Source: a virus. Taken from it: DNA of 64,000 nucleotides. The notes under the pieces were generated by a model. That model worked only from the letters and a program-made list of their open reading frames with translations. It had not been told where the DNA came from and searched no databases. Location: the IMG/VR virus record IMGVR_UViG_3300050014_000916, positions 5,028 through 69,027 of that record; one strand, given 5' to 3'. This document shows, one piece after another, positions 332 to 21,641 of this stretch (position 1 is its first letter; every line of letters starts with the position of its first letter). The translations under genes and the position numbers were made by a program.

Positions 332-363
332 AAAAAGGACTGTAATTATTTTTACAGTCCCTT
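332..363 (-). terminator. Intrinsic terminator closing the Lys/Tyr tRNA operon
   Basis: Minus strand GGACTGTAA-AAATAA-TTACAGTCC followed by TTTTT. Confidence 0.75.
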
Positions 364-364
364 G

Positions 365-436
365 TGCATCCGACAGGATTTGAACCTGTGTAAGTCCGCT
401 TAAGAGGCGGGAACATAACCACTTTGTTACGGATGC
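365..436 (-). tRNA. tRNA-Lys(CUU)
   Basis: GCATCCG/CGGATGC acceptor, anticodon loop CTCTTAA, T-loop TTCAAAT. Confidence 0.9.
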
Positions 437-442
437 ATGTTG

Positions 443-511
443 TGGGGGTAGTAGGCATCGAACCTACTATGTGGGCTTTTACAGAGCTGGTGTCTCCAAA
501 GACTTACCCCC
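443..511 (-). tRNA. Atypical short tRNA-Tyr(GUA)-like RNA
   Basis: GGGGGTA/TACCCCC acceptor, 1-nt linker, D-arm GTCT-TTGG-AGAC, loop CTGTAAA, T-arm GTAGG-TTCGATG-CCTAC; no long variable arm. Confidence 0.7.
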
Positions 512-518
512 AAATTTG

Positions 519-611
519 ACAGAAGGAAAGGATTCGAACCTTTCAAACCCAACACATACCGTTATTAACTGTAATTTATGCGTGGTAACGTTCCATTTTG
601 TTTACTTCTGT
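519..611 (-). ncRNA. tRNA-like RNA with enlarged anticodon arm and no readable anticodon
   Basis: CAGAAG/CTTCTG acceptor-like stem, T-arm AAAGG-TTCGAAT-CCTTT, ACGCATA/TATGTGT stem around an 18-nt loop. Confidence 0.5.
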
Positions 612-614
612 TTG

Positions 615-700
615 TGATCGCAGTGGGACTCGAACCCACAACGGCATAAAGCACCCTTCTCATTAAAAGTGAGAAGCTCCACCAATTGAGCTATACGATC
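615..700 (-). tRNA. tRNA-Lys(UUU) with long variable arm
   Basis: Anticodon arm TCTCA-CTTTTAA-TGAGA, ~18-nt variable region, T-loop TTCGAGT; 86 nt. Confidence 0.85.
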
Positions 701-864
701 AACAATAATATTAGTTTCAAAGAACTTGTACTCATTTTTTATAGAACATCGTTTTTTAAACGTTTTTCACGGGTAATAAACGTTTTTCATAAAATATGTC
801 TTTTTATACCTATTTTTCATAATCTAAGCGTTTTTATGCAACAATATGCGTTTTTATGCATAAC

Positions 865-893
865 AAAAAACCCGACTCTCAGGGAATCGGGTT
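865..893 (-). terminator. Attenuator terminator 1
   Basis: AACCCGATTC-CCTGA-GAGTCGGGTT then TTTT; lies between leader ORF and tRNAs. Confidence 0.85.
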
Positions 894-920
894 ACTAATA
901 TTTGTATTAAAAGGCAATCA

Positions 921-1013
921 TTAATTTTTACCTTTGGACACAGTATTCCCGATTCCTATAAACTGTTTTTTATAAGATTTTTTTCCGTAATAATATGTTC
1001 CAAAAGTTCTCAT
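921..1013 (-). CDS. Tyr/Lys-rich leader peptide MRTFGTYYYGKKSYKKQFIGIGNTVSKGKN
   Basis: Manual translation; contains GGAATCGGG (948-956), complementary to terminator 5' arm. Confidence 0.8.
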   Translation of the reverse strand: MRTFGTYYYGKKSYKKQFIGIGNTVSKGKN

Positions 1014-1052
1014 TGTTTTATTCTTTAACTATTTCATTAATATTTCAGATCA

Positions 1053-1084
1053 CAAATGTATAGTATAAATACGACATATGCAAA
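1053..1084 (-). promoter_or_regulatory. Bacteroidota sigma70-type promoter for leader 1
   Basis: TACATTTG (-7 box, 1053-1060) and TTTG (-33 box) 20 nt upstream. Confidence 0.65.
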
Positions 1085-1101
1085 TAAAATTGTAATTATT
1101 T

Positions 1102-1554
1102 TTATTTATCATAGCCAAATGTTCTCTTGGGATTACTCCAAAACTTCGCAGCTAATTGACTATGAGGAACATCGGGACGTAATTTTTCTTTTGTTAATTC
1201 TTCAATCCATTTATACATATTGCTTGCAATACCCAATCTTCTCTTATCTGGTCTTACATCTACACTTGCTTTTAATATGTCTGTTTCTTTTGCTTTACCA
1301 TATGATGCATTTCCAACCTCAGTTCCATCAGTATTATCGAATGCTTTTATCTCATTCCAAATAAACCAATCATCACCATATGTGCTAACAAAATTAACAT
1401 ATGTTATACCATTAATGGTTTTTTTATCTTGATAATCATTATAGTCGTTTAATTTTTTAGCATCATTTTTAATATAATCAATTCCAACGTCTTCATATGT
1501 TTCATGAAGTATTTTATGTACTTCTTCCTTGATTATATTAATAATGTTTTTCAT
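1102..1554 (-). CDS. GNAT-fold acetyltransferase-like protein with N-terminal IIKEE leader
   Basis: VDVRPDKRRLGIASNMY acetyl-CoA motif A; AAKFW. Confidence 0.65.
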   Translation of the reverse strand: MKNIINIIKEEVHKILHETYEDVGIDYIKNDAKKLNDYNDYQDKKTINGITYVNFVSTYGDDWFIWNEIKAFDNTDGTEVGNASYGKAKETDILKASVDVRPDKRRLGIASNMYKWIEELTKEKLRPDVPHSQLAAKFWSNPKRTFGYDK

Positions 1555-1571
1555 GTCAATAAATTCTACTA

Positions 1572-2069
1572 TTAATTTTCAATATTGTATTCATAATAGT
1601 TCATTAATTCATTTTCGTTATTAAAATATCGGATATTATCGTTATCAGGAGTATAATTTACCATTTCACGACCTCTAATCATTAAACCATCATATCCCAA
1701 TTTAATCATTTCATCCCTAACATTTGTTTTTGTGTCAAAATCTCTTTTCGCAGCAAAATAATCATCGATACCATTTTTTTTACCATATTGCATTACTACT
1801 GTTTGTATAAAAATTTCTGCATCATTCCAAGTATTAACAATTTTGGGATGTTTTGGTATAGCACCGACAACGAAATATACTTTACCATATTTTCTTGCCA
1901 ATTCTTTATTACTTAATGCTGCTGTGTACAAACCCTGACCAAAAGAAGCCATTCCATTATTTTCTTTACCCATTTCTTGAATGCCTCTAATGGTTACGTT
2001 TTGTCGTTTCCACTTTAAGTAATTGACGTGATTATATTCTTCTTTTATTATGTTGATAATATCTTGCAT
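1572..2069 (-). CDS. ADP-ribosyltransferase-fold-like protein with N-terminal IIKEE leader
   Basis: TIRG..FGQGLYTA..ARKYGKVY..GYDGL..EMV pattern typical of phage ART-like domains. Confidence 0.5.
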   Translation of the reverse strand: MQDIINIIKEEYNHVNYLKWKRQNVTIRGIQEMGKENNGMASFGQGLYTAALSNKELARKYGKVYFVVGAIPKHPKIVNTWNDAEIFIQTVVMQYGKKNGIDDYFAAKRDFDTKTNVRDEMIKLGYDGLMIRGREMVNYTPDNDNIRYFNNENELMNYYEYNIEN

Positions 2070-2083
2070 ATCAATAAATACTG

Positions 2084-2911: not shown

Positions 2912-2943
2912 AGTAAATTCGTTTACCATAAATACAAAAATAA

Positions 2944-2967
2944 AGCGGAATATTGCTATTCCGCTTC
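2944..2967. terminator. Hairpin terminator after ligase C-fragment
   Basis: AAGCGGAAT-ATTGCT-ATTCCGCTT inverted repeat. Confidence 0.6.
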
Positions 2968-2974
2968 ATGATAT

Positions 2975-3613: not shown

Positions 3614-3617
3614 ATTA

Positions 3618-4376: not shown

Positions 4377-5852
4377 TCAATAAATTATTTCAAACAGGTA
4401 AGTACATTCTTTGTTCAGTTTTTCATAATCTGTGATATTCAGCATCTTCTGTGCTTCAAGTGCTTGCTCAGATATGAATGAACCTCTTGATGCTACAAGC
4501 CATTTCATTCTTGGTTTGTAGTAGAATAAAATAATAAGTGAACCATCCATTTTTTCAAATACGTCAAATGCTTCTGACCAGTCAATTGTAGCTGGGTCAA
4601 ATTCTTCGTAGTTCTTGAACTTTTCAAATGGACGTGCTATGATGTTACCTTCAGCATCAATTACCAGACCACGACAAGATAAAGTATACTCGTCCCAGAA
4701 CTTCTTTGATTGAACTTTTGGGGAATAGTTAAGTATCCAGAGGTCATATTCTGGGTGCTTGTTTGCAATGATTAGGCTGTTATCAACATACTCTTGCAAT
4801 ATTTTCCAATCGATTTTTTCTAATGCTTTCATTTCATAAATAAATAAATAAATAGGTTCATACTTAAACTTCGTGTTTTTATCTCGTAAATTTACATTTG
4901 AAAGTGCGAGATAAAACTTCTTTGCCAATCTGAAACCTGTTTGTGCTGCAACCTGAATCGTTTTGTCTTCCAAATTAATATTGTGTTTGCCTTTTACATC
5001 GGCAATGTTTATTATCATCAAACCATCTGACTTCAAGCCATAATAACAATTTTCAAATGTCGGTCTCAGGAATCCCTCAACCCATGCTTCCTTTGTATTG
5101 AACTTCACATAACTCTGCGAAGGTTCATCTGCATATTTTTCCAAATCAAAGTATGGCGGTGAAGTAAAACATAAATCCAGCATTCCTTTTTCTGGCTGAT
5201 AACATTCACTTCCACATTTAAAAATATCATACAACATATCACCAGCAAAATCTTCTGCCATATCATGCAGTCCATTAAATGTTAATTCTGAAGGTTCGGT
5301 TGCAATATATTCTTTTACTCCACCAGCAATTGCACCAAGCAATCTGCCACCCCAACCACCTGACATGTCCCAAACTACGCCATCCTTTGCAAATGTATTA
5401 TAAATGCAAGCTGCTGCTGTTGGTCGGAAATTTGATACGCCTTGAACTCCTGTGTAAATCTTCAACATTTTTCTTATACCAGAGTCACTAATATACGTGC
5501 CCATCTGCAACCTTTTCCTTATGACCTTCATGAAAATTTCATCATTCATAAATGCTTCATATGGTGTCATTTTATCATTCGACTTAACATTGAATGAATG
5601 AGGAAAATATGACCACGCAAGTCCTAATCCATGCATTGATTGTTTTATTACATCGTTTTCAAACATCGTACTACGATCATATTTCATCAACTTCTCAAAA
5701 TCCTTTCTTCTGGTTTCCATATCTGTTGGATAATAAGGAAAACCCGTTTCTCTATAATGAATAAAAATCTTTGTTGCGAAGTTTTCCAATTCCATTGGCA
5801 GCATGTCTCGCCAATAATTTTCATTTATATTTAAACTTTCTTTATTTTTCAT
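4377..5852 (-). CDS. DNA amino-methyltransferase fused in frame to N-terminal half of RNA ligase (ligase ATG at 4832)
   Basis: DMSGGWGGRLLG and TSPPYF motifs, then CRGL..ARPFEKFKN..EKMDGS..SRGSF..FEIIY-stop. Confidence 0.8.
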   Translation of the reverse strand: MKNKESLNINENYWRDMLPMELENFATKIFIHYRETGFPYYPTDMETRRKDFEKLMKYDRSTMFENDVIKQSMHGLGLAWSYFPHSFNVKSNDKMTPYEAFMNDEIFMKVIRKRLQMGTYISDSGIRKMLKIYTGVQGVSNFRPTAAACIYNTFAKDGVVWDMSGGWGGRLLGAIAGGVKEYIATEPSELTFNGLHDMAEDFAGDMLYDIFKCGSECYQPEKGMLDLCFTSPPYFDLEKYADEPSQSYVKFNTKEAWVEGFLRPTFENCYYGLKSDGLMIINIADVKGKHNINLEDKTIQVAAQTGFRLAKKFYLALSNVNLRDKNTKFKYEPIYLFIYEMKALEKIDWKILQEYVDNSLIIANKHPEYDLWILNYSPKVQSKKFWDEYTLSCRGLVIDAEGNIIARPFEKFKNYEEFDPATIDWSEAFDVFEKMDGSLIILFYYKPRMKWLVASRGSFISEQALEAQKMLNITDYEKLNKECTYLFEIIY

Positions 5853-6871: not shown

Positions 6872-6900
6872 AAATAATATTAATTTAAAAATAAATAATT

Positions 6901-7134
6901 ATGAAAAATCTTTGGACAAAACTTATTACTTGGTTAACAACCGTTGCAGTACCCGCACTTAAAACATGGTTTGCAAAGAACTGGATGATCGTAGCAAACT
7001 ACGTCATTATATTCGCTGCATATTCAATTATATACGGCAAACAAGGTGTTGTTGGCGCAGAAGTATTGTTAGGACTTTGGTTATTTGCATCCGCAGCAAT
7101 TGGTGGATACAAATGGTTTACCAAAAAGAAATAA
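6901..7134 (+). CDS. Small two-TM membrane protein (holin-like)
   Basis: Two hydrophobic segments, basic C-terminus. Confidence 0.45.
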   Translation: MKNLWTKLITWLTTVAVPALKTWFAKNWMIVANYVIIFAAYSIIYGKQGVVGAEVLLGLWLFASAAIGGYKWFTKKK

Positions 7135-7149
7135 CATATTGGAAATTCA

Positions 7150-7174
7150 GAACCCGCTTAATAGCGGGTTTTTT
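7150..7174 (+). terminator. Intrinsic terminator
   Basis: AACCCGCT-TAAT-AGCGGGTT + T tract. Confidence 0.75.
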
Positions 7175-7175
7175 G

Positions 7176-7195
7176 TTGCGACTACCAGAATCGAA
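7176..7195. repeat. 20-bp copy of the tRNA-CAU 3' end (identical to 7938-7957)
   Basis: TTGCGACTACCAGAATCGAA at both positions. Confidence 0.9.
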
Positions 7196-9603: not shown

Positions 9604-9689
9604 TAGCGAAGATGGGAGTCGAACCCACACGGACATTACTGCCCATAGGTTTTTAAGACCTACATGTCTACCAGTTCCATCACTACGCC
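9604..9689 (-). tRNA. tRNA-Leu(UAA)
   Basis: TAGGT-CTTAAAA-ACCTA, class II arm, T-loop TTCGACT. Confidence 0.9.
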
Positions 9690-10153
9690 ATTTTATCTTT
9701 TCTTGCATTTTTTCCTCTATGTGTTTCTGTTTGACTGTGACAATTAGGACATAACATTTTTAAATTTGGTAACAAGTGATTGGTTCTATTTCCGTCAACA
9801 TGATCTAACTCCATTTCCAATTTTTTTCCATGCCACATACCTTTTTGTCCGCATTCCTCACAAACGTTTTTTTTGTATCCTTCCTTAATTAATCTGTTTT
9901 TTAATTTAAATGTTTGATATTCTGGATGCTTGCCTTCAAATATGATTTCTTCAATTGGTATCATCTTTGAAGGTCTTTTTCGTGTACCCTTTCCTGATTG
10001 ATTTGTTTTATAACAGTTTAAAATTATTGCTCTTCGTTTAAAACTATTGAAATGTATTTTTAATTTTGCAGCAGCTTGCGCCATGCTTGTTGATGTTTTA
10101 CATACAGAAATGAAATCTTTATCATTTATTCTGTCTTTAATTTGTTTTGGCAT
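9683..10153 (-). CDS. HNH homing endonuclease
   Basis: CEECG..ELDHVDGNRTNH..NLKMLCPNCHSQT. Confidence 0.9.
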   Translation of the reverse strand: MPKQIKDRINDKDFISVCKTSTSMAQAAAKLKIHFNSFKRRAIILNCYKTNQSGKGTRKRPSKMIPIEEIIFEGKHPEYQTFKLKNRLIKEGYKKNVCEECGQKGMWHGKKLEMELDHVDGNRTNHLLPNLKMLCPNCHSQTETHRGKNARKDKMA

Positions 10154-11631: not shown

Positions 11632-11645
11632 AACACATTTATTTG

Positions 11646-12000
11646 TGGAGGTATGGGGAGTCGAACCCCGTCCAAATATGTGAACAATACGTTTTCTACA
11701 AGTTTATTCAGATTTTCAAATCTAACAAAATATTAACATTTGTACGCAACTGTTATCAAACCGACCAATTTTTAACCTTCTTCGGTGGAAAGGTTCTTTG
11801 TTGTATTTGCTATTTCTTAAGCTGCTATTTCGAGTTCAACATTCTCTGAAACGAAGCTACCTCTTGTTAAAGAAGTGGGAAGGGACATAACGTCCTCTGA
11901 ATTAATTGCATTTATATTCTCGAACATGTTTAAAGCGAATATTCAACCGCTACTTGCTTACTATACCATTCGGTCACACTGTCAAAACCAAATTACCCCC
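11646..12000 (-). ncRNA. ssrA: tmRNA
   Basis: 5' GGGGGTAATTTGGTTTTGAC; 3' GGACGGGGTTCGACTCCCCATACCTCCA; G3-U70; tag ORF 11817-11909 ending ELEIAA-stop. Confidence 0.92.
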
Positions 12001-14678: not shown

Positions 14679-15463
14679 ATTTATTATCCCATTCAATAAT
14701 TCTACTATTTAATTCTTCTGAAGTAATTGAGCATGCTTTCCATTTACTCGAATTTTCATTATGTATCATTAATTGACAATTAGCAGGATGTTTAATTATT
14801 TCAGGACTTATATTATTTTCATATCCATATTTTACAGAAATCATATGGTCTCTACTAACACCATTTAAATTATTGCCATGATTTTTTGCTTGATACCAAC
14901 CATATTCTTTAATTAAATTAAAATTAAATTCATTGGGATAATCCGATAGATTAAATTTAAATTGACATTCTTTATAATATTTTTGATATTCAGTTAGATT
15001 CTTTCTATCATATATTTTTTTTACATTCAATCGAACAAAATTTCCAATTTCTTTTGCCAAATGAAAGAATTTTATTACATTCAATGCAATAATTAGGATT
15101 AATATAATATTCTTGTGTGTTATATCTTTTATTATTAGCATTAAGAATATTTTTCATTCCTTGTTCAGTATATACTCTTTCTTTACATGTTCTCATTCTA
15201 TTATTATATGATGCTGAACATTTATGTGAACAAAAAGCAGTTTTTATATTATCTCCAATAAATTCAGAACCACAAAACTTACATTTTTTAGTAAGATTAA
15301 AACTATTTTTTTTTCGATAATCTTTATTACATTTAATTGAACAAAAATGTTTTTTATTGTTTTTTTCACTTCGATTAAATTCAGATTCGGTTTTTTTAAA
15401 TATGTTTTGGCAATTTGCACAAACCACATCAATTAATTTTCTTCCCATTTTCCAATTTTTCAT
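14659..15463 (-). pseudogene. Zn-finger HNH-type endonuclease split by a frameshift at an A8 run (15015-15022)
   Basis: ORFs 15008-15463 and 14659-15141 join if one A is removed; SRDHM..HPANC..HNENSSK. Confidence 0.65.
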
Positions 15464-15537
15464 AATAATTACTTTTACATAAATACTATGAAAAATCTGA
15501 AAAGTGGAGAAGTTTGCTATCGAATCCTATTGTTTAG

Positions 15538-15609
15538 TGGAGCATGGGGGAGTCGAACCCCGAACATCTGAGTGACAGTCAGATATGTTAGCCATTACAC
15601 CACAGCCTC
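15538..15609 (-). tRNA. tRNA-Asp(GUC) with mispaired acceptor stem
   Basis: TCTGA-CTGTCAC-TCAGA; 5' GAGGCTG does not pair fully with 3' ATGCTCC. Confidence 0.65.
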
Positions 15610-15621
15610 GAAAATTAAAAG

Positions 15622-15699
15622 CGGACATAGAGGAATTCGAATCCTCGTTTTTGTGGGGTGACAACCCAAATCCCGCACGCCAGTCGAGCACATATGTCC
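15622..15699 (-). tRNA. tRNA-Asp(GUC)
   Basis: GGACATA/TATGTCC-G73, loop TTGTCAC. Confidence 0.8.
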
Positions 15700-15707
15700 A
15701 AAATTCG

Positions 15708-15783
15708 CAGTCCTGACAGGATTTGAACCTGCAACCCCCTCCCGAATCTGAGAGGGATTCACACCCGTATAAACTACAGGACT
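15708..15783 (-). tRNA. tRNA-like RNA with non-canonical anticodon loop
   Basis: AGTCCTG/CAGGACT-G73, normal T-arm, anticodon arm CCCTCTC-AGATTC-GGGAGGG (6-nt loop). Confidence 0.65.
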
Positions 15784-15789
15784 ATAAAG

Positions 15790-15865
15790 CGGTGCTGAAG
15801 GTATTCGAAACCTCCTGATCTCATGAGTGACAGTCATGCGTCCACACCAAGCAGACCCCAGCACC
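15790..15865 (-). tRNA. tRNA-Asp(GUC)
   Basis: GGTGCTG/CAGCACC-G73, CATGA-CTGTCAC-TCATG. Confidence 0.85.
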
Positions 15866-15905
15866 AAATTTCCAACATGTCAAAGAACCTCTACAACCAC
15901 AAAAC

Positions 15906-15939
15906 AAAAAACCCGACTGGATTTAGGACAGTCGGGTTT
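15906..15939 (-). terminator. Attenuator terminator 2
   Basis: AAACCCGACTG-TCCTAAATC-CAGTCGGGTTT + T tract. Confidence 0.85.
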
Positions 15940-15976
15940 CTTTTTTATAAGAAAGGAGGTTGTAATATTCGTTGTA

Positions 15977-16069
15977 TTACCCGACTGTATATAGCTTATC
16001 CTCTTCGGCTGCCCATAATAGGACATCCACCATGAGGACTGCTACCAATATGTCGAATAAATTTTTCAT
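15977..16069 (-). CDS. Leader peptide MKNLFDILVAVLMVDVLLWAAEEDKLYTVG
   Basis: Manual translation; ends in ACAGTCGGGT (15979-15988), complementary to terminator 5' arm. Confidence 0.75.
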   Translation of the reverse strand: MKNLFDILVAVLMVDVLLWAAEEDKLYTVG

Positions 16070-16113
16070 CGTTTTTCTTTTAAATTTGTTTGTCTTTCTA
16101 TTTAAATACTTTG

Positions 16114-16143
16114 CAAAGATAATAAAGTTTTCTGATTTCCAAA
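16114..16143 (-). promoter_or_regulatory. Bacteroidota sigma70-type promoter for leader 2
   Basis: TATCTTTG at 16114-16121, TTTG at 16140-16143. Confidence 0.65.
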
Positions 16144-16175
16144 CATTTTTTCAATTATTTTTAAAAAAAATTAAA

Positions 16176-16403
16176 TTATTTCTTATTTTTTCTAAATGTC
16201 ACTGCTTTTTTACCATTAATAGTTGGCATACCATGCTCGTCTTTTCCTATTGTCTTTACTACTGTTGGTGAATTTTTAAATTTGCCCATCATAATAGTGT
16301 CACCCACTTCTACATCAATATTTATATCTTCCGAAATAGGCTTGAAAGTCTTATCCAATTTTGCCATGACTTCAAAAAGTCTTTGTTTATTATTAGATTT
16401 CAT
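16176..16403 (-). CDS. Small protein with QRLFEVM N-terminal leader (probable internal head protein)
   Basis: Shared N-terminal motif; GTATTTAT motif upstream. Confidence 0.6.
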   Translation of the reverse strand: MKSNNKQRLFEVMAKLDKTFKPISEDINIDVEVGDTIMMGKFKNSPTVVKTIGKDEHGMPTINGKKAVTFRKNKK

Positions 16404-16707
16404 ATAATTTAAATTTATAATAAATACGTAAAAATTACTAATAATATAAATGCTTTATTCCTGTCGTATATTTAAATCGTCATATTTTTTTATTAATTTT
16501 GTAATGATTTTATCAATATACTTAAGACGTAGAGCAATTTTAGCTTCCACCTCACTAATGGTTATAATATTTTTCATAGTATTTTATTGTGTTAGGCTTT
16601 TTACTAAAGAACGTAGACATCTAACACTAATAAATACAATTACTGGTGTATATAAAAGTTATATAATTACGATAAAGATTTATACTATTCACACATTTAA
16701 ACAATTG

Positions 16708-16732
16708 AAAAGGGAAGTTTAGCTTCCCTTTT
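16708..16732. terminator. Bidirectional terminator
   Basis: AAAAGGGAAG-TTTAG-CTTCCCTTTT. Confidence 0.65.
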
Positions 16733-16733
16733 A

Positions 16734-17780
16734 TTATCTTCTTCCACCGCCTGAACTCCTACCACCACTTGAACTTCCACTCGATGAACTTCCACTCGAT
16801 GAACTTCCACCTGAACTCCTTGAACCACTTGAAAAGTTTGAACTACCTGAACTTCTTGGTGCGGAATAGCTTGAACCACCACCGTAACTACCTGAACTTC
16901 TACGATCACTGCCACCGTTATTATTACTACGAGATTCACTGTAACTTCTTGTGGGTGCAGTATATGTACGGGTCTGCGTGCGTGATTCACTTCTGATTGG
17001 CTGAGAATAAGTACGTGGTTGAGTACTTACATCTGCTCTTCTGTTATTTGTAGAGGTATTAGCTCTACTATTGTTATATTGTGGTCTGGTATTCATTCGG
17101 GGCTGATTGTATGAAGGTCTATATGTTCTTTGGTTATCAACTACAGGTCTTCTGTTTTGTACTGAAGAAGTCTGCGTTCTATAATGTACGGGATTCATAC
17201 TATTATTACGTCCACTGTTATTCCAGTTGTGTGTATAGTAATTATTGTAATTGTTGTGATTGTAATTATTAAACCTATAATGATTATAATTTCTCCAAGG
17301 ACTCCAATAATTATATCCGTAGAAACCCTGATAAAATGAATTGTAACTCCAGTAAGGATATCCCGAAAATCTCATATCCCAATAAAAATCATATGGGTCA
17401 TACATCCAATTTGAATAGTAGAAAGAATTGCCATACATCCAGTAATTAAATCCACCATGATAAAATCTACCTATATTATATGAATAATAGTACGGGTCGT
17501 AATTATAATAGTAGTTAACCTGAATATCAGGATTCTCACTTACGAGCGTATCAACAATTACGTCAACGTCTGCTCTTTTGTGTTTCTTGATCTTTTTAGC
17601 GTCTTTACTTGGTTGATAGTATAAGTCATCATACTCAGGCTTTGCGGTTGTGATACTGGCTGTAGACTTGTTAATTGAGTCTTCTCTGGCTTGCCAATAC
17701 TTTTCATAATTGGACTTCTTCTGTGCGAACATCACTGAGGATAAGAGCGCAAGGACAAAAATAAAGAATAATTTTTTCAT
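16734..17780 (-). CDS. Secreted Tyr/Asn-rich, Ser/Gly/Arg-tailed protein of Bacteroidota type
   Basis: Signal peptide MKKLFFIFVLALLSSVMFAQ; YDDLYY; C-terminal SSGGGRR. Confidence 0.7.
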   Translation of the reverse strand: MKKLFFIFVLALLSSVMFAQKKSNYEKYWQAREDSINKSTASITTAKPEYDDLYYQPSKDAKKIKKHKRADVDVIVDTLVSENPDIQVNYYYNYDPYYYSYNIGRFYHGGFNYWMYGNSFYYSNWMYDPYDFYWDMRFSGYPYWSYNSFYQGFYGYNYWSPWRNYNHYRFNNYNHNNYNNYYTHNWNNSGRNNSMNPVHYRTQTSSVQNRRPVVDNQRTYRPSYNQPRMNTRPQYNNSRANTSTNNRRADVSTQPRTYSQPIRSESRTQTRTYTAPTRSYSESRSNNNGGSDRRSSGSYGGGSSYSAPRSSGSSNFSSGSRSSGGSSSSGSSSSGSSSGGRSSGGGRR

Positions 17781-17824
17781 ATATACATTTTTATTTAATA
17801 AATACAAGCAATATTCGTACCAAA

Positions 17825-18217
17825 CTATATTCTTTTGTACTTATTATAGGTATCAAAGAGTGATTTAATGTTTGCGCTCCCTGCTGGATTCATTGAATGT
17901 ATGAGAATTTCTGCTGGTAATTCCAAATTATTATCAATACAATAATTGATGAGCCATTTAGCACAATGGTAACCTGTCTTTTCTTCGTATAGAAGATATT
18001 CTATTTCATCAAGATTTTGATGCGTGCCGTAATGTTCATCAGCAAGATCATGATCGAATGATATAATCTCAGGAATACCGTGTTCCTTAATATAGTCTAC
18101 AAAGTCATCGTAATTTCTTACGACAATCCAATCCAGATTACCATATACGTTTATGCCCAGATAATAAGCTGAATCAATCGGGTCTCTAAAATCATCAAGA
18201 TAAAGGTTGTAGCTCAT
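17825..18217 (-). CDS. Cyclic-phosphate-processing receiver-domain-like protein
   Basis: LYLDDFRDP..ISFDHDL..TGYHCAKW..HSMNPAG. Confidence 0.75.
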   Translation of the reverse strand: MSYNLYLDDFRDPIDSAYYLGINVYGNLDWIVVRNYDDFVDYIKEHGIPEIISFDHDLADEHYGTHQNLDEIEYLLYEEKTGYHCAKWLINYCIDNNLELPAEILIHSMNPAGSANIKSLFDTYNKYKRI

Positions 18218-18218
18218 A

Positions 18219-18428
18219 TTAAAAATGATTTTTTTTGGTGTTGTCTTTTACATTTACGGTGAATCTCGGTATGCAACCACCTTCGACTTTTTCCATTATA
18301 ATAAAGGAAACGTCATATTGCCTTTGTGTTGGATTATATTTGGTGGGCGTTATCAGTACTTCAGCATTATCGCCAAGTAAATCTTCTGTACATTTTTTGA
18401 GGTATATCAACAGTTCTTCTGCTTCCAT
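18219..18428 (-). CDS. Hypothetical protein
   Basis: 69 aa ORF. Confidence 0.45.
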   Translation of the reverse strand: MEAEELLIYLKKCTEDLLGDNAEVLITPTKYNPTQRQYDVSFIIMEKVEGGCIPRFTVNVKDNTKKNHF

Positions 18429-18449
18429 ATTGTTTTTATTTAAAATTAG

Positions 18450-18523
18450 TTGTCCCTGTAGGACTCGAACCTACACTCGCCTGAATCAAAATCAGATGTG
18501 TTAACCAATTACACCAAGGGACA
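18450..18523 (-). tRNA. tRNA-Gln(UUG)
   Basis: TGTCCCT/AGGGACA, loop TTTTGAT. Confidence 0.9.
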
Positions 18524-18528
18524 ATAGA

Positions 18529-18741
18529 TCATAAAACTACTCCGTAAATATCCACGCTACAGACCTTTTTATCTGTTAAAAGAACAATTGCACGTTCATT
18601 TACTTTAAAGGTTTTGCATTGATCAAGCAATATAAAGTCACCAACACATGGAATAACATCAGATTCAAATTCAAACAAAAAACTTACATCAGTAGAGTAA
18701 TCCATTTCTGTTATTTTTGAAAAAACTTTAATTTTTGTCAT
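18529..18741 (-). CDS. Hypothetical protein
   Basis: 70 aa ORF. Confidence 0.45.
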   Translation of the reverse strand: MTKIKVFSKITEMDYSTDVSFLFEFESDVIPCVGDFILLDQCKTFKVNERAIVLLTDKKVCSVDIYGVVL

Positions 18742-18755
18742 AATATATTTTTTAA

Positions 18756-19517
18756 TTAAAAGCTATCTTCAAGTTTCATTAAAAGTTTTTGCATATCTGC
18801 TTTATAAAAACCTGCACAATTAATGCAACCACATTCAACAATTTTATAACCATTCTCAGTTAATGCCAAATCCATTACAAAAGCATCATTCAATTGAAAT
18901 ATATCAATCATCTTATAACAAAACTTATAAGCTGCTTTGTCAATGTCGTCACTAAGTATCAATCTGTTTCCAAGCCTATACTGACTTGCTGTGACGATTT
19001 CGCCTTTGACAATCCAGAACCTGATTTCCTGTTGAATCTTTTTAACTGTTGATATTTGAATTTCAGTGTCGATATCCAGTAATGTACTGTGACCGTTAGT
19101 TAGTGAATATGCAACAAAGTCTCGCCATTCCTGCATGTCAAAAACCCTACCTGTAAATACCTTAGTATCTTTAGTTGGGCGTGCAAAGAACAACTCTTTG
19201 CTGAAGAAATCATCACCGAATTTCTGTATACGTGAATCGTAGTTCAATAGATTTTCTTTATAATAATCTCTGTAAACCAAATAGTCATGATTGGCATTCA
19301 TTTGAGAACCGGGTCGCCAGCCTCTTTTCACTGACAGCCTTGCCATTTTCAATGAGCCGAAAGGAAATACATCTTTTCTTTTGGTTTGTACTCTGAATGA
19401 ATTAATAAATGCTTTAACCTTGACAATCTCGTAAGGTAGAAATAGTTTGTCCAATGCCAACACTAAGTTGTCATAATTTGCTTCGTTAAATACATTTTCT
19501 TGAACTACGTAATACAT
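18756..19517 (-). CDS. ATP-grasp protein (R2K-like)
   Basis: FARPTKDTKVFTG..EIRFWIVKGEIVTASQY..FVMDL..IVECGCINCAGFY. Confidence 0.75.
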   Translation of the reverse strand: MYYVVQENVFNEANYDNLVLALDKLFLPYEIVKVKAFINSFRVQTKRKDVFPFGSLKMARLSVKRGWRPGSQMNANHDYLVYRDYYKENLLNYDSRIQKFGDDFFSKELFFARPTKDTKVFTGRVFDMQEWRDFVAYSLTNGHSTLLDIDTEIQISTVKKIQQEIRFWIVKGEIVTASQYRLGNRLILSDDIDKAAYKFCYKMIDIFQLNDAFVMDLALTENGYKIVECGCINCAGFYKADMQKLLMKLEDSF

Positions 19518-19571
19518 TTTGCAAAGATAGTAATAAAAACAATAAGTCAAAGAACTTTTTATTTTTTGTTG

Positions 19572-19643
19572 TTCCCCCCACAGGGGTCGAACCTGTAGTC
19601 ATCGGGGTCAAAGTCCGATATGTTACCATTACACCAGAGGGGA
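19572..19643 (-). tRNA. tRNA-Gln(UUG)
   Basis: TCCCCTC/GGGGGGA, loop CTTTGAC. Confidence 0.88.
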
Positions 19644-19646
19644 ATA

Positions 19647-20165
19647 TTATACCTGTTCGGGTATATTTTTTTTAATATAATACTTAATCCATTTTCGTAT
19701 AGCATTATCTGAAACACCATATATTTTACCAGTACCAGAATATCCATATTCTTTTATGTTTTGCTGTAATTGTTCATATGACGGACGTTGCGATTTACGG
19801 CTATTTAAACTAATACACGTTAAACACGATTTTGCTCTTCTTCCAATTATATTGCCACATTGACAATATTTATGTGTTTTTATTTTTTTATGTTTTACAT
19901 TTTTACCTGAAAAAGTAGATAGTGTTGCGTTACAATTAGGACAAACGATTTGTAGGTTTTCAATTCTATTATCGGTTTTAATACCATTTATGTGGTCGAG
20001 AATTAAACTCATGTATTTACCACGCCAAGTTTCATTTTGTCCACACAATTCACATATTGGTTGTTTTAAATTTTCTTTATATAGTCTTCTTTTTAAACTA
20101 TTTGTGGATTTATATTTTGAGTTTTCAACTAAAATTAATTCTGTGCGTATCTTAAGTGTTGTCAT
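19647..20165 (-). CDS. HNH homing endonuclease
   Basis: LDHINGIKTDNRIENLQIVCPNCNA; C-terminal HTH. Confidence 0.88.
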   Translation of the reverse strand: MTTLKIRTELILVENSKYKSTNSLKRRLYKENLKQPICELCGQNETWRGKYMSLILDHINGIKTDNRIENLQIVCPNCNATLSTFSGKNVKHKKIKTHKYCQCGNIIGRRAKSCLTCISLNSRKSQRPSYEQLQQNIKEYGYSGTGKIYGVSDNAIRKWIKYYIKKNIPEQV

Positions 20166-20180
20166 TTATGTTTTAATATT

Positions 20181-20258
20181 TGGTTGCCCAACTAAGGCTC
20201 GAACTTAGAAATCTTCAGATTCAGAGTCTGACGTGTTAGCCAATTGCGCCATGTGGCA
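20181..20258 (-). tRNA. tRNA-Gln(CUG), encoded CCA
   Basis: TCAGA-CTCTGAA-TCTGA. Confidence 0.85.
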
Positions 20259-20296
20259 ATGTTTTTGCTGTACATTAAGTAATAAACTAAATTTAG

Positions 20297-20370
20297 GGTG
20301 AAAGGTGAGTTTCGATCTCACTACCTCTTGGTTCACAGCCAAGCACTCTCCCGATTGAGCTACAGTCACC
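20297..20370 (-). tRNA. tRNA-His(GUG)
   Basis: G-1/C73, CTTGG-CTGTGAA-CCAAG. Confidence 0.85.
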
Positions 20371-20373
20371 ATG

Positions 20374-20452
20374 TGGTCGAGATGGTGCGATTCGAACGCA
20401 CGAGTTCTTCTGCTCCCAAAGCAGACGGGGTGACCAACTCCCCAACATCTCG
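20374..20452 (-). tRNA. tRNA-Pro(UGG), encoded CCA
   Basis: CGAGATG/CATCTCG, TCTGC-TTTGGGA-GCAGA. Confidence 0.92.
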
Positions 20453-20455
20453 AAA

Positions 20456-21019
20456 TTATTTCTTTTGAAAATTTTTTATGTATTCATCTATTTTTAATTT
20501 AATAAGATATCTGAATTTACTATGCCAATATTGATGATGTGTCGGACACAATGGAATTAAATTTTCTGGACTATTATTTTTCTTATTTCCATCATAATGA
20601 TGAACTTCTATAATATTTTTTTCATCACAACAAACACATTTCTTTTCGTGATAACGAAAACAAATTGTTCTATATTTTACTTCCGCATTCAAATCATTAT
20701 CGTTTTTATAATTTGGATTTGCTTTCCCTGATCTGAAATATGTGTTTGCACATGCATGTGAACATACTGTTTTTTCTCTTGGATGTCCAGATTTCGTTTC
20801 AAATTCATTATCACATATGGGGCAAACCTTTTTTATAATTAAATATTTTCGTCTTTTGGTTTTTCCTCTATTAAAATGTGTTACATTAAGATTGAAATTT
20901 TTTATTAATTCATTTACTTTTCGTAAACCTGAACCATTTATTTGAAAACCTAATTCACGACAAACATCGCTCTTACTATCGCATTTTGTGATAATATTTT
21001 TAATTTTATTAATATTCAT
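20456..21019 (-). CDS. HNH homing endonuclease
   Basis: CVCC..VHHYDGNKKNNSPENLIPLCPTHH. Confidence 0.88.
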   Translation of the reverse strand: MNINKIKNIITKCDSKSDVCRELGFQINGSGLRKVNELIKNFNLNVTHFNRGKTKRRKYLIIKKVCPICDNEFETKSGHPREKTVCSHACANTYFRSGKANPNYKNDNDLNAEVKYRTICFRYHEKKCVCCDEKNIIEVHHYDGNKKNNSPENLIPLCPTHHQYWHSKFRYLIKLKIDEYIKNFQKK

Positions 21020-21163
21020 AAATTTATTTTATTATAAATACTAATAAAAAGTCGAAAAACGATGATTTGAATAAATTTCAATACATCGTTACTCGATAAT
21101 TTTACAATATTTCAAAGAACTATATCCCGTAATTACGTGATAAACGCTTTTATCACGCTTTTT

Positions 21164-21239
21164 GGTGTTAGAGGGGAATCGAACCCCCAAACCCGTGATT
21201 CACAGTCACGTGAAGAATACCAACATCTACAACTAACAC
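21164..21239 (-). tRNA. tRNA-His(GUG)
   Basis: GTGTTAG/CTAACAC-C73, CGTGA-CTGTGAA-TCACG; irregular D-arm. Confidence 0.8.
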
Positions 21240-21241
21240 AG

Positions 21242-21317
21242 TCGAGTAGGCAGGACTCGAACCTGCGAGTTCTCCTGAATCCAGATCAGGCGGGGTAGCC
21301 AACTCCCCAACTACTCG
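21242..21317 (-). tRNA. tRNA-Pro(UGG) with C33 and A37
   Basis: CGAGTAG/CTACTCG, CCTGA-TCTGGAT-TCAGG. Confidence 0.82.
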
Positions 21318-21326
21318 AAAAATATG

Positions 21327-21421
21327 TCAGGGTGGTGGGGTTCGAACCCACGCACGACAACACCTTTGTGCCGTGACTGGTTTCCAAGACCAGCAGCTTC
21401 AACCAACTCGCTCACACCCTG
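21327..21421 (-). tRNA. tRNA-Pro(UGG) with very long variable arm (95 nt)
   Basis: CAGGGTG/CACCCTG, CTGGT-CTTGGAA-ACCAG, variable stem CACGGCA..TGTCGTG. Confidence 0.85.
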
Positions 21422-21443
21422 AATACATCAAAGAACTAAAATG

Positions 21444-21472
21444 AAAAAACCCCATTCGATATGAATGGGGTT
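21444..21472 (-). terminator. Attenuator terminator 3
   Basis: AACCCCATTC-ATATC-GAATGGGGTT + TTTT. Confidence 0.85.
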
Positions 21473-21507
21473 CTTCTGTTTAACCTAAAACTTTTTCAAT
21501 GAAAAAA

Positions 21508-21576
21508 TTAAGCATAGAATCCCCATTCCAGTGTTTGTGGATGCTGTTGGGGGTTTATGTTCATTAAATTTTTCAT
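21508..21576 (-). CDS. Pro/Gln/His leader peptide MKNLMNINPQQHPQTLEWGFYA
   Basis: Manual translation; contains GAATGGGG (21521-21528), complementary to terminator 5' arm. Confidence 0.82.
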   Translation of the reverse strand: MKNLMNINPQQHPQTLEWGFYA

Positions 21577-21610
21577 CGTCTTACAAATAACATTTATTAA
21601 AAACTCTTCG

Positions 21611-21641
21611 CAAAGATATACATTAAAATCATAAATACAAA
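21611..21641 (-). promoter_or_regulatory. Bacteroidota sigma70-type promoter for leader 3
   Basis: TATCTTTG at 21611-21618, TTTG 19 nt upstream. Confidence 0.65.

What the first reader, a model, noticed from the sequence alone, without database searches (positions are those of the whole stretch)
332..21641. Codon-matched leader-peptide attenuators controlling phage tRNA operons (three instances)
Seen: three minus-strand units share one layout. Each has a TAnnTTTG promoter, a 22-30 codon leader ORF (below the ORF-track cutoff), an intrinsic terminator, a boxA-like GTTCTTTG and then a tRNA cluster. Each leader contains an 8-10 nt segment perfectly complementary to the terminator 5' arm, placed 2-3 codons after the last cognate codon. 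The leader codons match the tRNAs that follow. Established: this is the logic of trp/his/pheST ribosome-mediated attenuation, and host defences such as PrrC and other anticodon nucleases destroy specific tRNAs. Inference: the phage senses loss of particular charged tRNAs by ribosome stalling and induces the replacement tRNAs. I know of no description of this for phage tRNA arrays, but could not search the literature.
Basis: partly seen in the sequence, partly recalled or inferred. Interest (0 to 1): 0.96.

Follow-up and report, generated by a model that had tools for sequence, protein, structure and literature searches.

The report
Leader-peptide attenuators gating phage tRNA genes
In this giant T4-like phage, each main block of tRNA genes sits behind a tiny test gene, written in the codons those tRNAs read and wired to a switchable transcription stop, so the phage probably makes these tRNAs only when ribosomes run short of them.

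Summary
All three minus-strand units have a Bacteroidota-type promoter, a 30-, 30- or 22-codon ORF and a strong intrinsic terminator. Each ORF contains a 9-, 10- or 8-nt in-frame segment perfectly complementary to the terminator 5' arm. GTTCTTTGA and a tRNA block follow.

Within the window the codon match is far beyond chance for the Lys/Tyr unit (P~5e-5) and the Pro/Gln/His unit (P~3e-6). It is not for the Asp unit alone.

Comparative data decide it:
- Of 117 viral loci with the terminator-GTTCTTTGA signature, 82 carry tRNAs and all 82 have a leader ORF.
- Across 45 leader clusters, leader residues match the downstream tRNAs in 0.298 of positions, against 0.189±0.012 when tRNA sets are permuted (0 of 20000 permutations).
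- Leader segments track their own terminator arm.
- Cognate codons are enriched only 4-13 codons before the antiterminator.
- Eight units found tRNA-first in near-complete relatives replicate the match.

Best reading: trp-type ribosome-stalling attenuators that feed decoding speed back onto phage tRNA supply. Everything is in silico. The anti-defence trigger is untested.

Seven literature searches found no description. This scan had already noted the same design on other DNA.

The parts
1053..1084 (-). U1 promoter: -33 TTTG (1084-1081), 20-nt spacer, -7 TAnnTTTG (1060-1053)
   Evidence: Read; -7 located by script. The consensus itself is recalled (Bacteroides sigma-A promoters).
921..1013 (-). 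U1 leader ORF, 30 codons plus stop. Control codons 7-16 (995-966): 8 of 10 are Tyr or Lys
   Evidence: P~5e-5. U1-like leaders stand before Lys/Tyr tRNA blocks in relatives L029, L116 and G155.
948..956 (-). U1 antiterminator strand: 9 nt perfectly complementary to the terminator 5' arm; starts at codon 20, phase 0
   Evidence: duplex -17.1 kcal/mol. Nascent RNA from this segment to the 5' arm folds as an antiterminator at -25.3, against -13.7 for the terminator hairpin.
865..893 (-). U1 intrinsic terminator: 10-bp stem, 5-nt loop, run of six T
717..725 (-). U1 GTTCTTTGA (rrn boxA-like), 16 nt before tRNA-Lys
364..700 (-). U1 regulated tRNA block: Lys(UUU) 700-614, Tyr(GUA) 511-442, Lys(CUU) 436-364
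   Evidence: tRNA-Tyr is called by ARAGORN only.
332..360 (-). Hairpin plus T-run that closes the U1 tRNA block
   Evidence: Read (by eye); not tested further.
16114..16143 (-). U2 promoter: -33 TTTG (16143-16140), 18-nt spacer, -7 TAnnTTTG (16121-16114)
15977..16069 (-). U2 leader ORF, 30 codons plus stop. Asp at codons 6, 15 and 24; Glu-Glu-Asp patch at codons 22-24 (16006-15998)
   Evidence: The family alignment shows a conserved Asp/Glu patch just before the antiterminator. Relatives carry Asp+Glu tRNAs downstream.
15979..15988 (-). U2 antiterminator strand: 10 nt perfectly complementary to the terminator 5' arm; starts at codon 28; the stop codon follows directly
   Evidence: duplex -18.6; antiterminator fold -16.7 against -15.9 for the terminator. 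In the untranslated leader it pairs with codons 4-6 (fold -33.1).
15906..15939 (-). U2 intrinsic terminator: 11-bp stem, 9-nt loop, run of six T
   Evidence: The scan missed it because its loop limit is 8.
15880..15888 (-). U2 GTTCTTTGA, 14 nt before the first tRNA-Asp
15539..15865 (-). U2 regulated tRNA block: Asp(GUC) x3 and one tRNA with an irregular anticodon loop (15783-15707)
21611..21641 (-). U3 promoter: -33 TTTG (21641-21638), 19-nt spacer, -7 TAnnTTTG (21618-21611)
21508..21576 (-). U3 leader ORF, 22 codons plus stop. Codons 9-14 (21552-21535) are all Pro, Gln or His
   Evidence: P~3e-6. Homologous leaders precede Pro/His/Gln blocks in L013 and G155.
21521..21528 (-). U3 antiterminator strand: 8 nt perfectly complementary to the terminator 5' arm; starts at codon 17
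   Evidence: duplex -15.6; antiterminator fold -20.8 against -16.1 for the terminator.
21444..21476 (-). U3 intrinsic terminator: up to 14 pairs, 5-nt loop, run of six T
21428..21436 (-). U3 GTTCTTTGA, 6 nt before tRNA-Pro. A further copy at 21120-21112 follows tRNA-His, and another at 19555-19547 follows tRNA-Gln
20181..21421 (-). U3 regulated array, split by a homing endonuclease gene: Pro, Pro, His (21421-21164); HNH ORF (21019-20456); Pro, His, Gln(CUG) (20452-20181)

Best explanation
Each unit is a leader-peptide (ribosome-mediated) transcription attenuator placed before a block of phage tRNA genes.

Proposed sequence of events:
1. Host RNA polymerase starts at a Bacteroidota-type promoter.
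2. A ribosome translates the 22-30-codon leader.
3. If the tRNAs that read the central control codons are scarce, the ribosome stalls 4-13 codons before the antiterminator strand. These are the same tRNA species that the block encodes.
4. The free antiterminator strand then pairs with the terminator's 5' arm as it emerges, so the terminator cannot form.
5. The polymerase runs past GTTCTTTGA into the tRNA genes. GTTCTTTGA is the same motif as in host rrn leaders, so it possibly loads an rrn-type antitermination complex.
6. If decoding is fast, the ribosome covers the antiterminator strand or reaches the stop codon next to it. The terminator then forms and transcription ends.

The result is a closed loop: the phage makes a tRNA block only while decoding of that block's codons is slow.

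Shown from sequence and comparison: the parts, their geometry and the covariation. Inferred: translation of the leader, stalling, the switch itself and the role of GTTCTTTGA.
For: 1. Anatomy is complete in 3 of 3 units. Antiterminator folds (-25.3, -16.7, -20.8 kcal/mol) equal or exceed the terminator hairpins (-13.7, -15.9, -16.1).

2. Recurrence. The signature 'GGG + six T, 5-30 nt, GTTCTTTGA' gave 117 viral matches. tRNAs follow on the same strand in 81 of them within 700 nt and in 82 within 1500 nt. Among 121 matches in cellular genomes only 2 had tRNAs, and one of those is a phage-like 5.8-kb contig carrying an Asp-type leader.

3. An ATG ORF of 12-60 codons ends within 110 nt upstream of the terminator (up to 6 nt past the start of its 5' arm) in 82 of 82 loci. 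An ORF of at least 20 codons is present in 44 of 45 cluster representatives. The controls give 34% of 900 shuffles and 17 of 45 reverse complements.

4. Leader/tRNA covariation:
- 45 clusters: cognate fraction 0.298 against 0.189±0.012; 0 of 20000 permutations reach it.
- 36 conservative clusters: 0.313 against 0.211±0.014; 0 of 20000.
- Codon level: 0.253 against 0.145±0.011; 0 of 20000.
- 310 of 375 cognate residues use a codon that the downstream anticodon can read.
- 19 of 20 amino acids are commoner in a leader when their tRNA follows.

5. Replicate on units found tRNA-first in three near-complete relatives. 8 of the 11 units were not in the motif-selected set. They score 0.369 against 0.225±0.035; 0 of 14833 derangements reach it.

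6. Antiterminator/terminator covariation. The longest perfect complement to a leader's own 5' arm averages 7.0 nt, against 4.82±0.19 with arms permuted (maximum 5.53 in 2000 permutations).

7. Position. In the 25 of 45 representatives with a complement of at least 7 nt, cognate codons are enriched only at codons -13 to -4 before the antiterminator. Examples: 17 of 25 at -9 against 6.7 expected, and 16 of 25 at -7 against 5.7. Codons -3 to +6 show none overall (mostly 1-4 against about 4.5; only +3 is nominally above its expectation, 5 of 18 against 3.2). This matches the roughly 12-13 nt a ribosome covers 3' of its A site (recalled).

8. U2 and U3 are paralogous cassettes. They share the promoter, the 5' UTR and the first four codons, and their upstream genes are paralogs. 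Their control codons and terminators differ in step with their tRNAs.

9. TAnnTTTG lies within 100 nt upstream of the ATG in 28 of 43 representatives, against 2 of 44 in a control region.
Against: - There is no experimental or expression evidence. No RNA run held the stretch (reported under Tried and rejected only).
- The U2 codon match is not significant within the window. This contig has no tRNA-Glu for the two Glu codons of its acidic patch.
- U1 has two further Lys codons after the antiterminator. Its stop codon lies 24 nt beyond the antiterminator, so a terminating ribosome would not cover that strand.
- The leader for Lys(CUU) contains no AAG codon.
- The excess of third-position changes in leader families is weak: 107, 92 and 128 changes at codon positions 1, 2 and 3.
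- Within the Asp family the pairing core is invariant, so that family contributes little compensatory evidence.
- 20 of 45 representatives had a perfect complement shorter than 7 nt. G-U pairs and mismatches were not scored.
- Leader clusters are not fully independent, because they share ancestry.
Confidence: 0.8

Rival explanations
1. The same attenuators have been selected mainly as a counter-defence alarm. In this reading they switch on replacement tRNAs when host anticodon nucleases or other tRNA-depleting defences cut specific tRNAs. This is the first reader's trigger, and it refines the best explanation rather than excluding it.
For: - The tRNA region carries RNA-repair-type genes: a T4 Rnl1-type RNA ligase domain (ORF 4377-5852) and a cyclic-phosphate-processing receiver domain (17825-18217). 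An R2K ATP-grasp protein lies beside them (18756-19520).
- The controlled species include Lys, Tyr, His and Asp, which I recall as targets of PrrC-like and colicin-E5-like nucleases.
- Any working attenuator of this kind would respond to such depletion automatically.
Against: - Across the 45 clusters, the controlled blocks include tRNAs for all 20 amino acids. That fits general supply control better than a response to particular nucleases.
- No defence or nuclease gene was examined.
- Gene neighbourhood is not a test.
Confidence: 0.3
2. The units are constitutive, rrn-like leaders. In this reading the hairpin plus GTTCTTTGA copies the host rrn boxB/boxA arrangement, or serves as a processing site. 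The short ORFs are incidental and untranslated.
For: - A Bacteroidales rrn leader shows a promoter, then a hairpin with a T-run, then GTTCTTTGA, with 16S starting 125 nt later and no ORF noted.
- The motif lies 100-130 nt before 16S in 23 of 151 sampled Bacteroidota genomes.
- The coding signal in the leaders is weak.
Against: - It does not explain the ORF in 44 of 45 representatives against 34% of shuffles.
- It does not explain the leader/tRNA covariation, the position-specific enrichment or the tracking of the terminator arm.
- 8 of the 11 units found tRNA-first lack GTTCTTTGA yet keep the leader and terminator.
Confidence: 0.07
3. The short ORFs encode functional micro-proteins that end at their own terminator, for example a small hydrophobic peptide in the Asp family. 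In this reading the tRNAs are transcribed independently.
For: The Asp-family leaders keep a conserved hydrophobic N-terminal half that codon sensing does not explain.
Against: - No promoter motif lies between the terminator and the tRNAs in U2 and U3, where the gaps are 40 and 22 nt.
- Peptides differ completely between families, but always in step with the tRNAs.
- The terminator arm is complementary to the ORF's 3' part.
Confidence: 0.05
4. An RNA-only switch that binds tRNA directly (T-box-like), with no role for translation.
For: It would also couple tRNA status to read-through of a terminator.
Against: - No T-box or other Rfam leader family matches the units at E<=0.1.
- The matching elements are many in-frame codons, for up to a dozen tRNA species, inside a start-to-stop ORF. 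A T-box has a single specifier codon.
Confidence: 0.03

Closest known systems
Leader-peptide attenuators of amino-acid operons (trp, his, phe, leu; multivalent thr and ilvGMEDA of enterobacteria) - textbook knowledge, recalled
   Same: A short leader ORF rich in regulatory codons. An antiterminator that competes with an intrinsic terminator. Regulatory codons placed so that a stalled ribosome leaves the antiterminator free. Multi-amino-acid leaders resemble the multivalent thr and ilv leaders.
   Different: - The regulated genes are tRNA genes, not biosynthetic enzymes. The product itself (tRNA) closes the loop, and making it cannot relieve amino-acid starvation.
- Leaders can list up to about a dozen different amino acids, one or two codons each.
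- The units are phage-borne.
- There is no sequence similarity to any Rfam leader family.
pheST attenuator (a Phe-codon leader controlling a tRNA synthetase operon) - recalled
   Same: Leader-peptide attenuation applied to a gene of the translation apparatus.
   Different: It controls a synthetase, senses one amino acid and is a cellular gene.
T-box riboswitches
   Same: They couple the state of a specific tRNA to read-through of a terminator before translation-related genes.
   Different: A T-box binds uncharged tRNA directly, through one specifier codon, without a ribosome. No T-box match was found here.
Anabaena trn operon (long tRNA array induced under translational stress; PMC8421152, PMC10272220)
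   Same: An accessory tRNA array that is switched on when translation is impaired.
   Different: Per its title and abstract (search listing), control is by the protein repressor TrcR. The words leader, attenuat and terminator occur 0 times in either main text.
rrn leader/spacer boxA antitermination sites
   Same: The nonamer GTTCTTTGA stands 100-130 nt before 16S in 23 of 151 sampled Bacteroidota genomes. It also stands in a 16S-23S spacer after the spacer tRNAs. These are the positions I recall for boxA in E. coli rrn operons.
   Different: Here it sits 6-16 nt before phage tRNAs and after a conditional terminator. It is optional in relatives. Binding of NusB/NusE was not tested.

Membership tests
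Leader-peptide (ribosome-mediated) transcription attenuators | Short ORF between the promoter and the regulated genes | tested here: met
   3 of 3 window units. 82 of 82 viral loci. 44 of 45 representatives have an ORF of at least 20 codons, against 34% of shuffles.
Leader-peptide (ribosome-mediated) transcription attenuators | Regulatory codons correspond to the regulated product | tested here: met
   Permutation tests. Within the window: U1 P~5e-5, U3 P~3e-6, U2 not significant alone.
Leader-peptide (ribosome-mediated) transcription attenuators | Intrinsic terminator before the regulated genes, and a mutually exclusive antiterminator using its 5' arm | tested here: met
   The arm-permutation test gives 7.0 against 4.82±0.19 nt.
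Leader-peptide (ribosome-mediated) transcription attenuators | Geometry: a ribosome stalled at the regulatory codons leaves the antiterminator free, and a ribosome that proceeds covers it | tested here: met
   Cognate codons are enriched at -13 to -4 codons and not at -3 to +6, in the 25 of 45 representatives with a complement of at least 7 nt. The window units have 2-3 spacer codons. U1's distant stop codon fits less well.
Leader-peptide (ribosome-mediated) transcription attenuators | The leader is translated, and read-through rises when the cognate charged tRNA is limiting | not testable with these tools
   No RNA holder was listed. The codon-position signal is only weak.
Leader-peptide (ribosome-mediated) transcription attenuators | Regulated genes are amino-acid biosynthesis or synthetase genes (all described members, as far as I recall and as my searches show) | tested here: not met
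   The regulated genes are tRNAs. This is why I file it as a new variant rather than a member of a described family.
Rfam leader families (Trp_leader, His_leader, Thr_leader, Leu_leader, Bacteroid-trp and others) | A match to the family's covariance model | tested here: not met
   No leader family hits any unit at E<=0.1. The only Trp_leader hit (7095-7177, plus strand, 30.9 bits against a gathering score of 41) lies elsewhere and below threshold.
T-box riboswitch | Specifier loop plus the T-box sequence, matching the Rfam model | tested here: not met
   No T-box match.
rrn-type boxA | The same motif is conserved in the rrn leader and spacer of the presumed host phylum | tested here: met
   23 of 151 sampled Bacteroidota genomes have it 100-130 nt before the 16S 5' end. 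102 of the 151 have the exact 16S 5' site, and some of those sit at contig ends. The reversed-pattern control gave 0. Examples are L194 (leader) and L175 (spacer).
rrn-type boxA | Binds NusB/NusE and confers terminator-resistant transcription | not testable with these tools
   -
Bacteroidota sigma-A promoter | -33 TTTG and -7 TAnnTTTG about 19 nt apart (recalled consensus) | tested here: met
   Spacers of 20, 18 and 19 nt in U1-U3. The -7 motif lies within 100 nt upstream of the leader ATG in 28 of 43 representatives, against 2 of 44 in a control region.

The most novel reading that the evidence does not exclude
The leaders are programmable 'bar codes' of each tRNA array. They would be multi-codon sensors of decoding speed, through which a virus reads the host's tRNA pool in real time and transcribes only the tRNA blocks that are running short. 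On this reading the phage senses tRNA supply, not amino-acid supply. The same circuit would act as an automatic alarm and repair response when host defences cleave or deplete specific tRNAs. It would work alongside the RNA-ligase and cyclic-phosphate-processing genes in the same region.
Probability: 0.45. Interest if true: 0.93.

Novelty: new variant of a known kind. Interest (0 to 1): 0.86.

Why it matters
As far as I recall, tRNA genes are treated as controlled at the promoter (growth rate, stringent response) or, in one cyanobacterial array, by a repressor. I found no account of tRNA genes gated by a leader peptide.

If these units work as they read, large phages regulate their own tRNA supply by a direct feedback on decoding speed, block by block. 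That would have several consequences:
- It would explain how tRNA-rich phages avoid needless tRNA synthesis while still buffering codon-usage mismatch, host shut-off or tRNA-targeting defences.
- It would extend trp-type attenuation to a new class of product, with leaders that list up to about a dozen amino acids.
- It would give a compact natural sensor of the availability of chosen tRNAs, usable as a reporter.
- It yields a simple annotation rule: a short ORF whose codons mirror the following anticodons, plus a terminator. The rule finds such units in many uncultured phage genomes.

Tried and rejected
- Relatives through the 210-aa protein upstream of U3: 79 pattern hits, none confirmed.
- Megablast of window 1-22000 against catalogued phages: no match. 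Distant blastn of the U2 leader: no match.
- MCP tblastn: the best hit has 33% identity, so there is no close cultured relative. The signature is absent from LR756508, LR756511 and MW353176.
- Expression: no RNA holder was listed for window 15400-21800.
- Rfam: no known leader or T-box family matches the units.
- Compensatory changes within the Asp family: the pairing core is invariant and only its flanks vary. I therefore relied on the between-family arm-permutation test.
- Codon-position test for coding: only a weak third-position excess.
- The 35 of 117 viral pattern hits without tRNAs: mostly no good hairpin or leader. I treated them as chance matches.
- GTTCTTTGA as a -33 promoter element: rejected for the three units, because no -7 motif follows before the tRNA. 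The copy at 19555-19547 does precede a TAnnTTTG and an ORF.
- The host's own tRNA operons as the source of the design: only 2 of 121 cellular matches have tRNAs downstream.
- Literature: seven searches. I saw listings with titles and abstract starts only, and none describes leader-peptide attenuation of tRNA genes. For PMC10272220 and PMC8421152 I ran word finds on the main text only. Supplements were not seen. About 1.7 million PMC articles and all subscription-only papers were not searched.

Full report
**What the window is**

The window is bases 5028-69027 of a 69-kb virus record. The record is estimated to be 21% complete, which implies a genome of about 330 kb.
- It encodes a T4-type major capsid protein, a portal protein that carries an intein, a large terminase and a prohead protease.
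- All 18 tRNA genes and the tmRNA gene lie on the minus strand between 364 and 21421.
- No catalogued phage is close. Megablast finds nothing, and the capsid protein reaches at most 33% identity to uncultured huge phages.

**The observation**

Reading the minus strand and locating the parts by script confirms three units with one layout:
- -33 TTTG and -7 TAnnTTTG, 18-20 nt apart.
- A 29-39-nt A-rich 5' UTR.
- An ORF of 30, 30 or 22 codons.
- A 10-14-bp G+C-rich hairpin followed by six T.
- GTTCTTTGA, and 6-16 nt later the first tRNA of a block.

Each ORF contains a perfect complement of the terminator's 5' arm, 9, 10 or 8 nt long. The complement starts in frame at codon 20, 28 or 17. That is 3, 3 and 2 codons after the last codon cognate to the tRNAs that follow.

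Energetics:
- The nascent RNA from that segment to the 5' arm folds into an antiterminator of -25.3, -16.7 and -20.8 kcal/mol.
- The terminator hairpins give -13.7, -15.9 and -16.1.
- In U2 and U3 the untranslated leader pairs the antiterminator strand with upstream codons. In U3 those are the Pro control codons. This resembles the 1:2 pairing of the trp leader.

**Codon match inside the window**

- U1: 8 of 10 consecutive codons are Tyr or Lys, before tRNA-Lys, Tyr, Lys. P~5e-5 given the phage's own amino-acid frequencies.
- U3: six consecutive codons are Pro, Gln or His, before Pro, Pro, His / Pro, His, Gln. P~3e-6.
- U2: three scattered Asp codons plus a Glu-Glu-Asp patch, before three tRNA-Asp. 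Not significant alone (P~0.39; Asp+Glu 0.12).

**Relatives**

A protein-based search for relatives failed. I therefore scanned the viral collection for the DNA signature 'GGG + six T, 5-30 nt, GTTCTTTGA'.
- 81 of the 117 have same-strand tRNAs within 700 nt, and 82 within 1500 nt.
- The other 35 look like chance matches.
- The same scan of 596 Gb of cellular genomes gave 121 matches, of which only 2 have tRNAs. One of those is a 5.8-kb contig with an Asp-type leader followed by Asp, Asp, Asp, Glu, Glu.

The design is therefore a phage feature, not a host one.

**Leaders in relatives**

I used one rule that is blind to tRNA identity: take the longest ATG ORF of 12-60 codons ending within 110 nt upstream of the hairpin.
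- 82 of 82 loci have a leader.
- An ORF of at least 20 codons is present in 44 of 45 cluster representatives. Dinucleotide shuffles give 34%, and the opposite strand gives 17 of 45.
- TAnnTTTG lies within 100 nt upstream of the ATG in 28 of 43 representatives, against 2 of 44 in a control region.

**Covariation with the tRNAs**

The 82 leaders plus the 3 window leaders form 45 clusters (single linkage at 50% identity).

| Test | Observed | Permuted | Permutations reaching it |
|---|---|---|---|
| 45 clusters, amino-acid level | 0.298 | 0.189±0.012 | 0 of 20000 |
| 36 conservative clusters | 0.313 | 0.211±0.014 | 0 of 20000 |
| 45 clusters, codon level (wobble rules) | 0.253 | 0.145±0.011 | 0 of 20000 |

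The measure is the mean fraction of leader residues whose amino acid has a tRNA within 1000 nt downstream. Permutation reassigns tRNA sets among clusters.
- 310 of 375 cognate residues use a codon that the downstream anticodon can read.
- 19 of 20 amino acids are commoner in a leader when their tRNA follows. Asn is the exception.

**Covariation with the terminator**

The longest perfect complement between a leader and its own terminator 5' arm averages 7.0 nt. With arms permuted among clusters it averages 4.82±0.19, with a maximum of 5.53 in 2000 permutations.

Within the Asp family the pairing core is invariant, so that family adds little.

**Geometry**

I used the 25 of 45 representatives with a complement of at least 7 nt. 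The other 20 were dropped because no register could be set.
- Cognate codons are enriched only at codons -13 to -4 relative to the antiterminator start. Examples: 17 of 25 against 6.7 expected at -9; 16 against 5.7 at -7; 16 against 7.1 at -6; 15 against 6.7 at -5.
- They are not enriched overall from -3 to +6 (mostly 1-4 against about 4.5; only +3 is nominally above its expectation, 5 of 18 against 3.2).

The sharp edge four codons before the antiterminator is what a stalled ribosome's 3' boundary predicts (about 12-13 nt from the first A-site base, recalled).

**Independent replicate**

I then worked tRNA-first in three near-complete relatives: G154 (385 kb), G155 (322 kb, with terminal repeats) and G156 (291 kb).
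- Of 39 tRNA clusters (250-nt gap rule), 11 have a terminator plus ORF within 230 nt upstream. These head the main blocks.
- 8 of the 11 were not in the motif-selected set. All 8 lack GTTCTTTG within the 420 nt examined.
- Those 8 give a cognate fraction of 0.369 against 0.225±0.035, and 0 of 14833 derangements reach it.
- A twelfth unit lies 352 nt before the Tyr/Lys block of G155.
- G155 carries counterparts of all three window units, in the same order.

**Paralogy within the window**

U2 and U3 are paralogous cassettes. They share the end of the upstream spacer, the -7 box, the bases before the ATG and the first four codons. Their upstream genes share an N-terminal motif. Their control codons and terminators have diverged in step with their tRNAs.

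**GTTCTTTGA**

- It occurs 6 times in the window against 1.04 expected. Five copies lie in the tRNA region on the tRNA strand, and the sixth is antisense in a gene.
- The same nonamer follows a promoter and a hairpin with a T-run in a Bacteroidales rrn leader, 125 nt before 16S.
- It also lies in a Chitinophagaceae 16S-23S spacer after the spacer tRNAs.
- In 151 sampled Bacteroidota genomes, 23 have it 100-130 nt before the 16S 5' end. 102 of the 151 show the exact 16S site, some at contig ends. The reversed-pattern control gave 0.

'BoxA-like' is thus a fair name, and together with the promoter type it points to a Bacteroidota host. Its function here is inferred, and it is not obligatory.

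**Mechanism and rivals**

The best explanation is trp-type attenuation with the phage's own tRNAs as the product: slow decoding of the control codons gives read-through, and fast decoding gives termination. I put it at 0.8.

The anti-defence trigger is a refinement that I could not test.
- For it: the region carries an Rnl1-type RNA ligase domain and a cyclic-phosphate-processing receiver domain, with an R2K ATP-grasp protein beside them.
- Against it as the main role: blocks for all 20 amino acids are under such control, which fits general supply control.

A constitutive rrn-like leader, a functional micro-protein and a T-box-like RNA switch each fail to explain the covariation, the position effect or the ORF excess. 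Rfam finds no known leader or T-box on the units.

**Weak points**

- There are no expression data.
- U2 is unconvincing alone, and this contig has no tRNA-Glu.
- U1 has Lys codons after the antiterminator, and its stop codon lies 24 nt beyond it.
- The third-position excess in leader families is weak: 107, 92 and 128 changes.
- The clusters share ancestry.

**Novelty**

Seven full-text searches found no account of leader-peptide attenuation of tRNA genes (listings only). The nearest system in print is the Anabaena trn array, which is controlled by the repressor TrcR. The words leader, attenuat and terminator are absent from both papers' main texts.

This scan's earlier notes report the same design on other DNA, including giant Caulobacter phages and a roughly 330-kb phage. 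They likewise found no publication. Those are unchecked AI notes. I set my scores on the tests above.

I file the finding as a new variant of a known kind: the mechanism class is classical, while the regulated product, the feedback logic and the multi-codon 'array bar-code' leaders are new.

Noticed in passing
window 11643-12000 (-): A phage-borne tmRNA gene (Rfam 94.4 bits, full length). ARAGORN predicts a 30-residue tag.
   Followed up: no
window 20456-21019, 19647-20165, 9683-10153 (-): Three HNH homing-endonuclease ORFs are interleaved with the tRNAs (Pfam HNH families). One splits the Pro/His/Gln array into two partly duplicated blocks. In relative L013 the Pro, Pro, His, Gln block is contiguous.
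   Followed up: partly
window 4377-5852, 17825-18217, 18756-19520 (-): RNA-repair-type genes lie inside the tRNA region: an ORF with a T4 Rnl1-type RNA ligase domain plus a DNA-methylase-like domain, and a cyclic-phosphate-processing receiver domain protein. An R2K ATP-grasp protein lies beside them.
   Followed up: partly
window 22474-23676 (+): A lysine-2,3-aminomutase-like radical SAM protein is transcribed divergently from the U3 region. Its match is to the C-terminal domain of that enzyme family. I recall that family as including the EF-P modification enzyme EpmB.
   Followed up: no
window 865-726 (-): Only in U1, a 140-nt spacer separates the terminator from GTTCTTTGA. Read by eye, it holds two pairs of 13-nt direct repeats. 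Function unknown. G155 has an even longer gap (352 nt) at its U1 counterpart.
   Followed up: no
window 15783-15707, 700-614, 21421-21326, about 595-518 (-): Several tRNAs are irregular:
- One has an 8-nt anticodon loop, or a 2-nt intron under relaxed ARAGORN settings.
- A tRNA-Lys is 87 nt long, with an extended variable arm.
- A tRNA-Pro is 96 nt long.
- A degenerate tRNA-like element lies between tRNA-Lys and tRNA-Tyr; only relaxed settings call it.
   Followed up: partly
window 16176-16403 and 21668-22348 (-): The genes just upstream of U2 and U3 are paralogs with a shared N-terminal motif. The gene and the attenuator cassette seem to have duplicated together. Neither has a Pfam family.
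   Followed up: partly
Asp-family leaders (U2, L009, L020, L040, L041, L043 and others): The N-terminal two-thirds of the Asp-type leader is a conserved hydrophobic peptide across 15 diverged members. Codon sensing does not explain this. It may reflect an RNA pause or anti-antiterminator structure (the U2 leader alone folds at -33.1 kcal/mol), or a property of the peptide.
   Followed up: partly
L194 4580-4800 (+), Bacteroidales genome contig: The host-type rrn leader reads: promoter, hairpin with a T-run, GTTCTTTGA, then 16S. It looks like the phage unit without the leader ORF, which hints that the phage cassette may derive from an rrn-type leader.
   Followed up: partly
window 36084-39233 (+): The T4-type portal gene carries an intein with a LAGLIDADG homing-endonuclease domain.
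   Followed up: no
L252 about 18045 (G155): ARAGORN calls a tRNA with a CUA anticodon ('Pyl', meaning amber-reading) in the complete relative G155. It is a possible suppressor tRNA.
   Followed up: no
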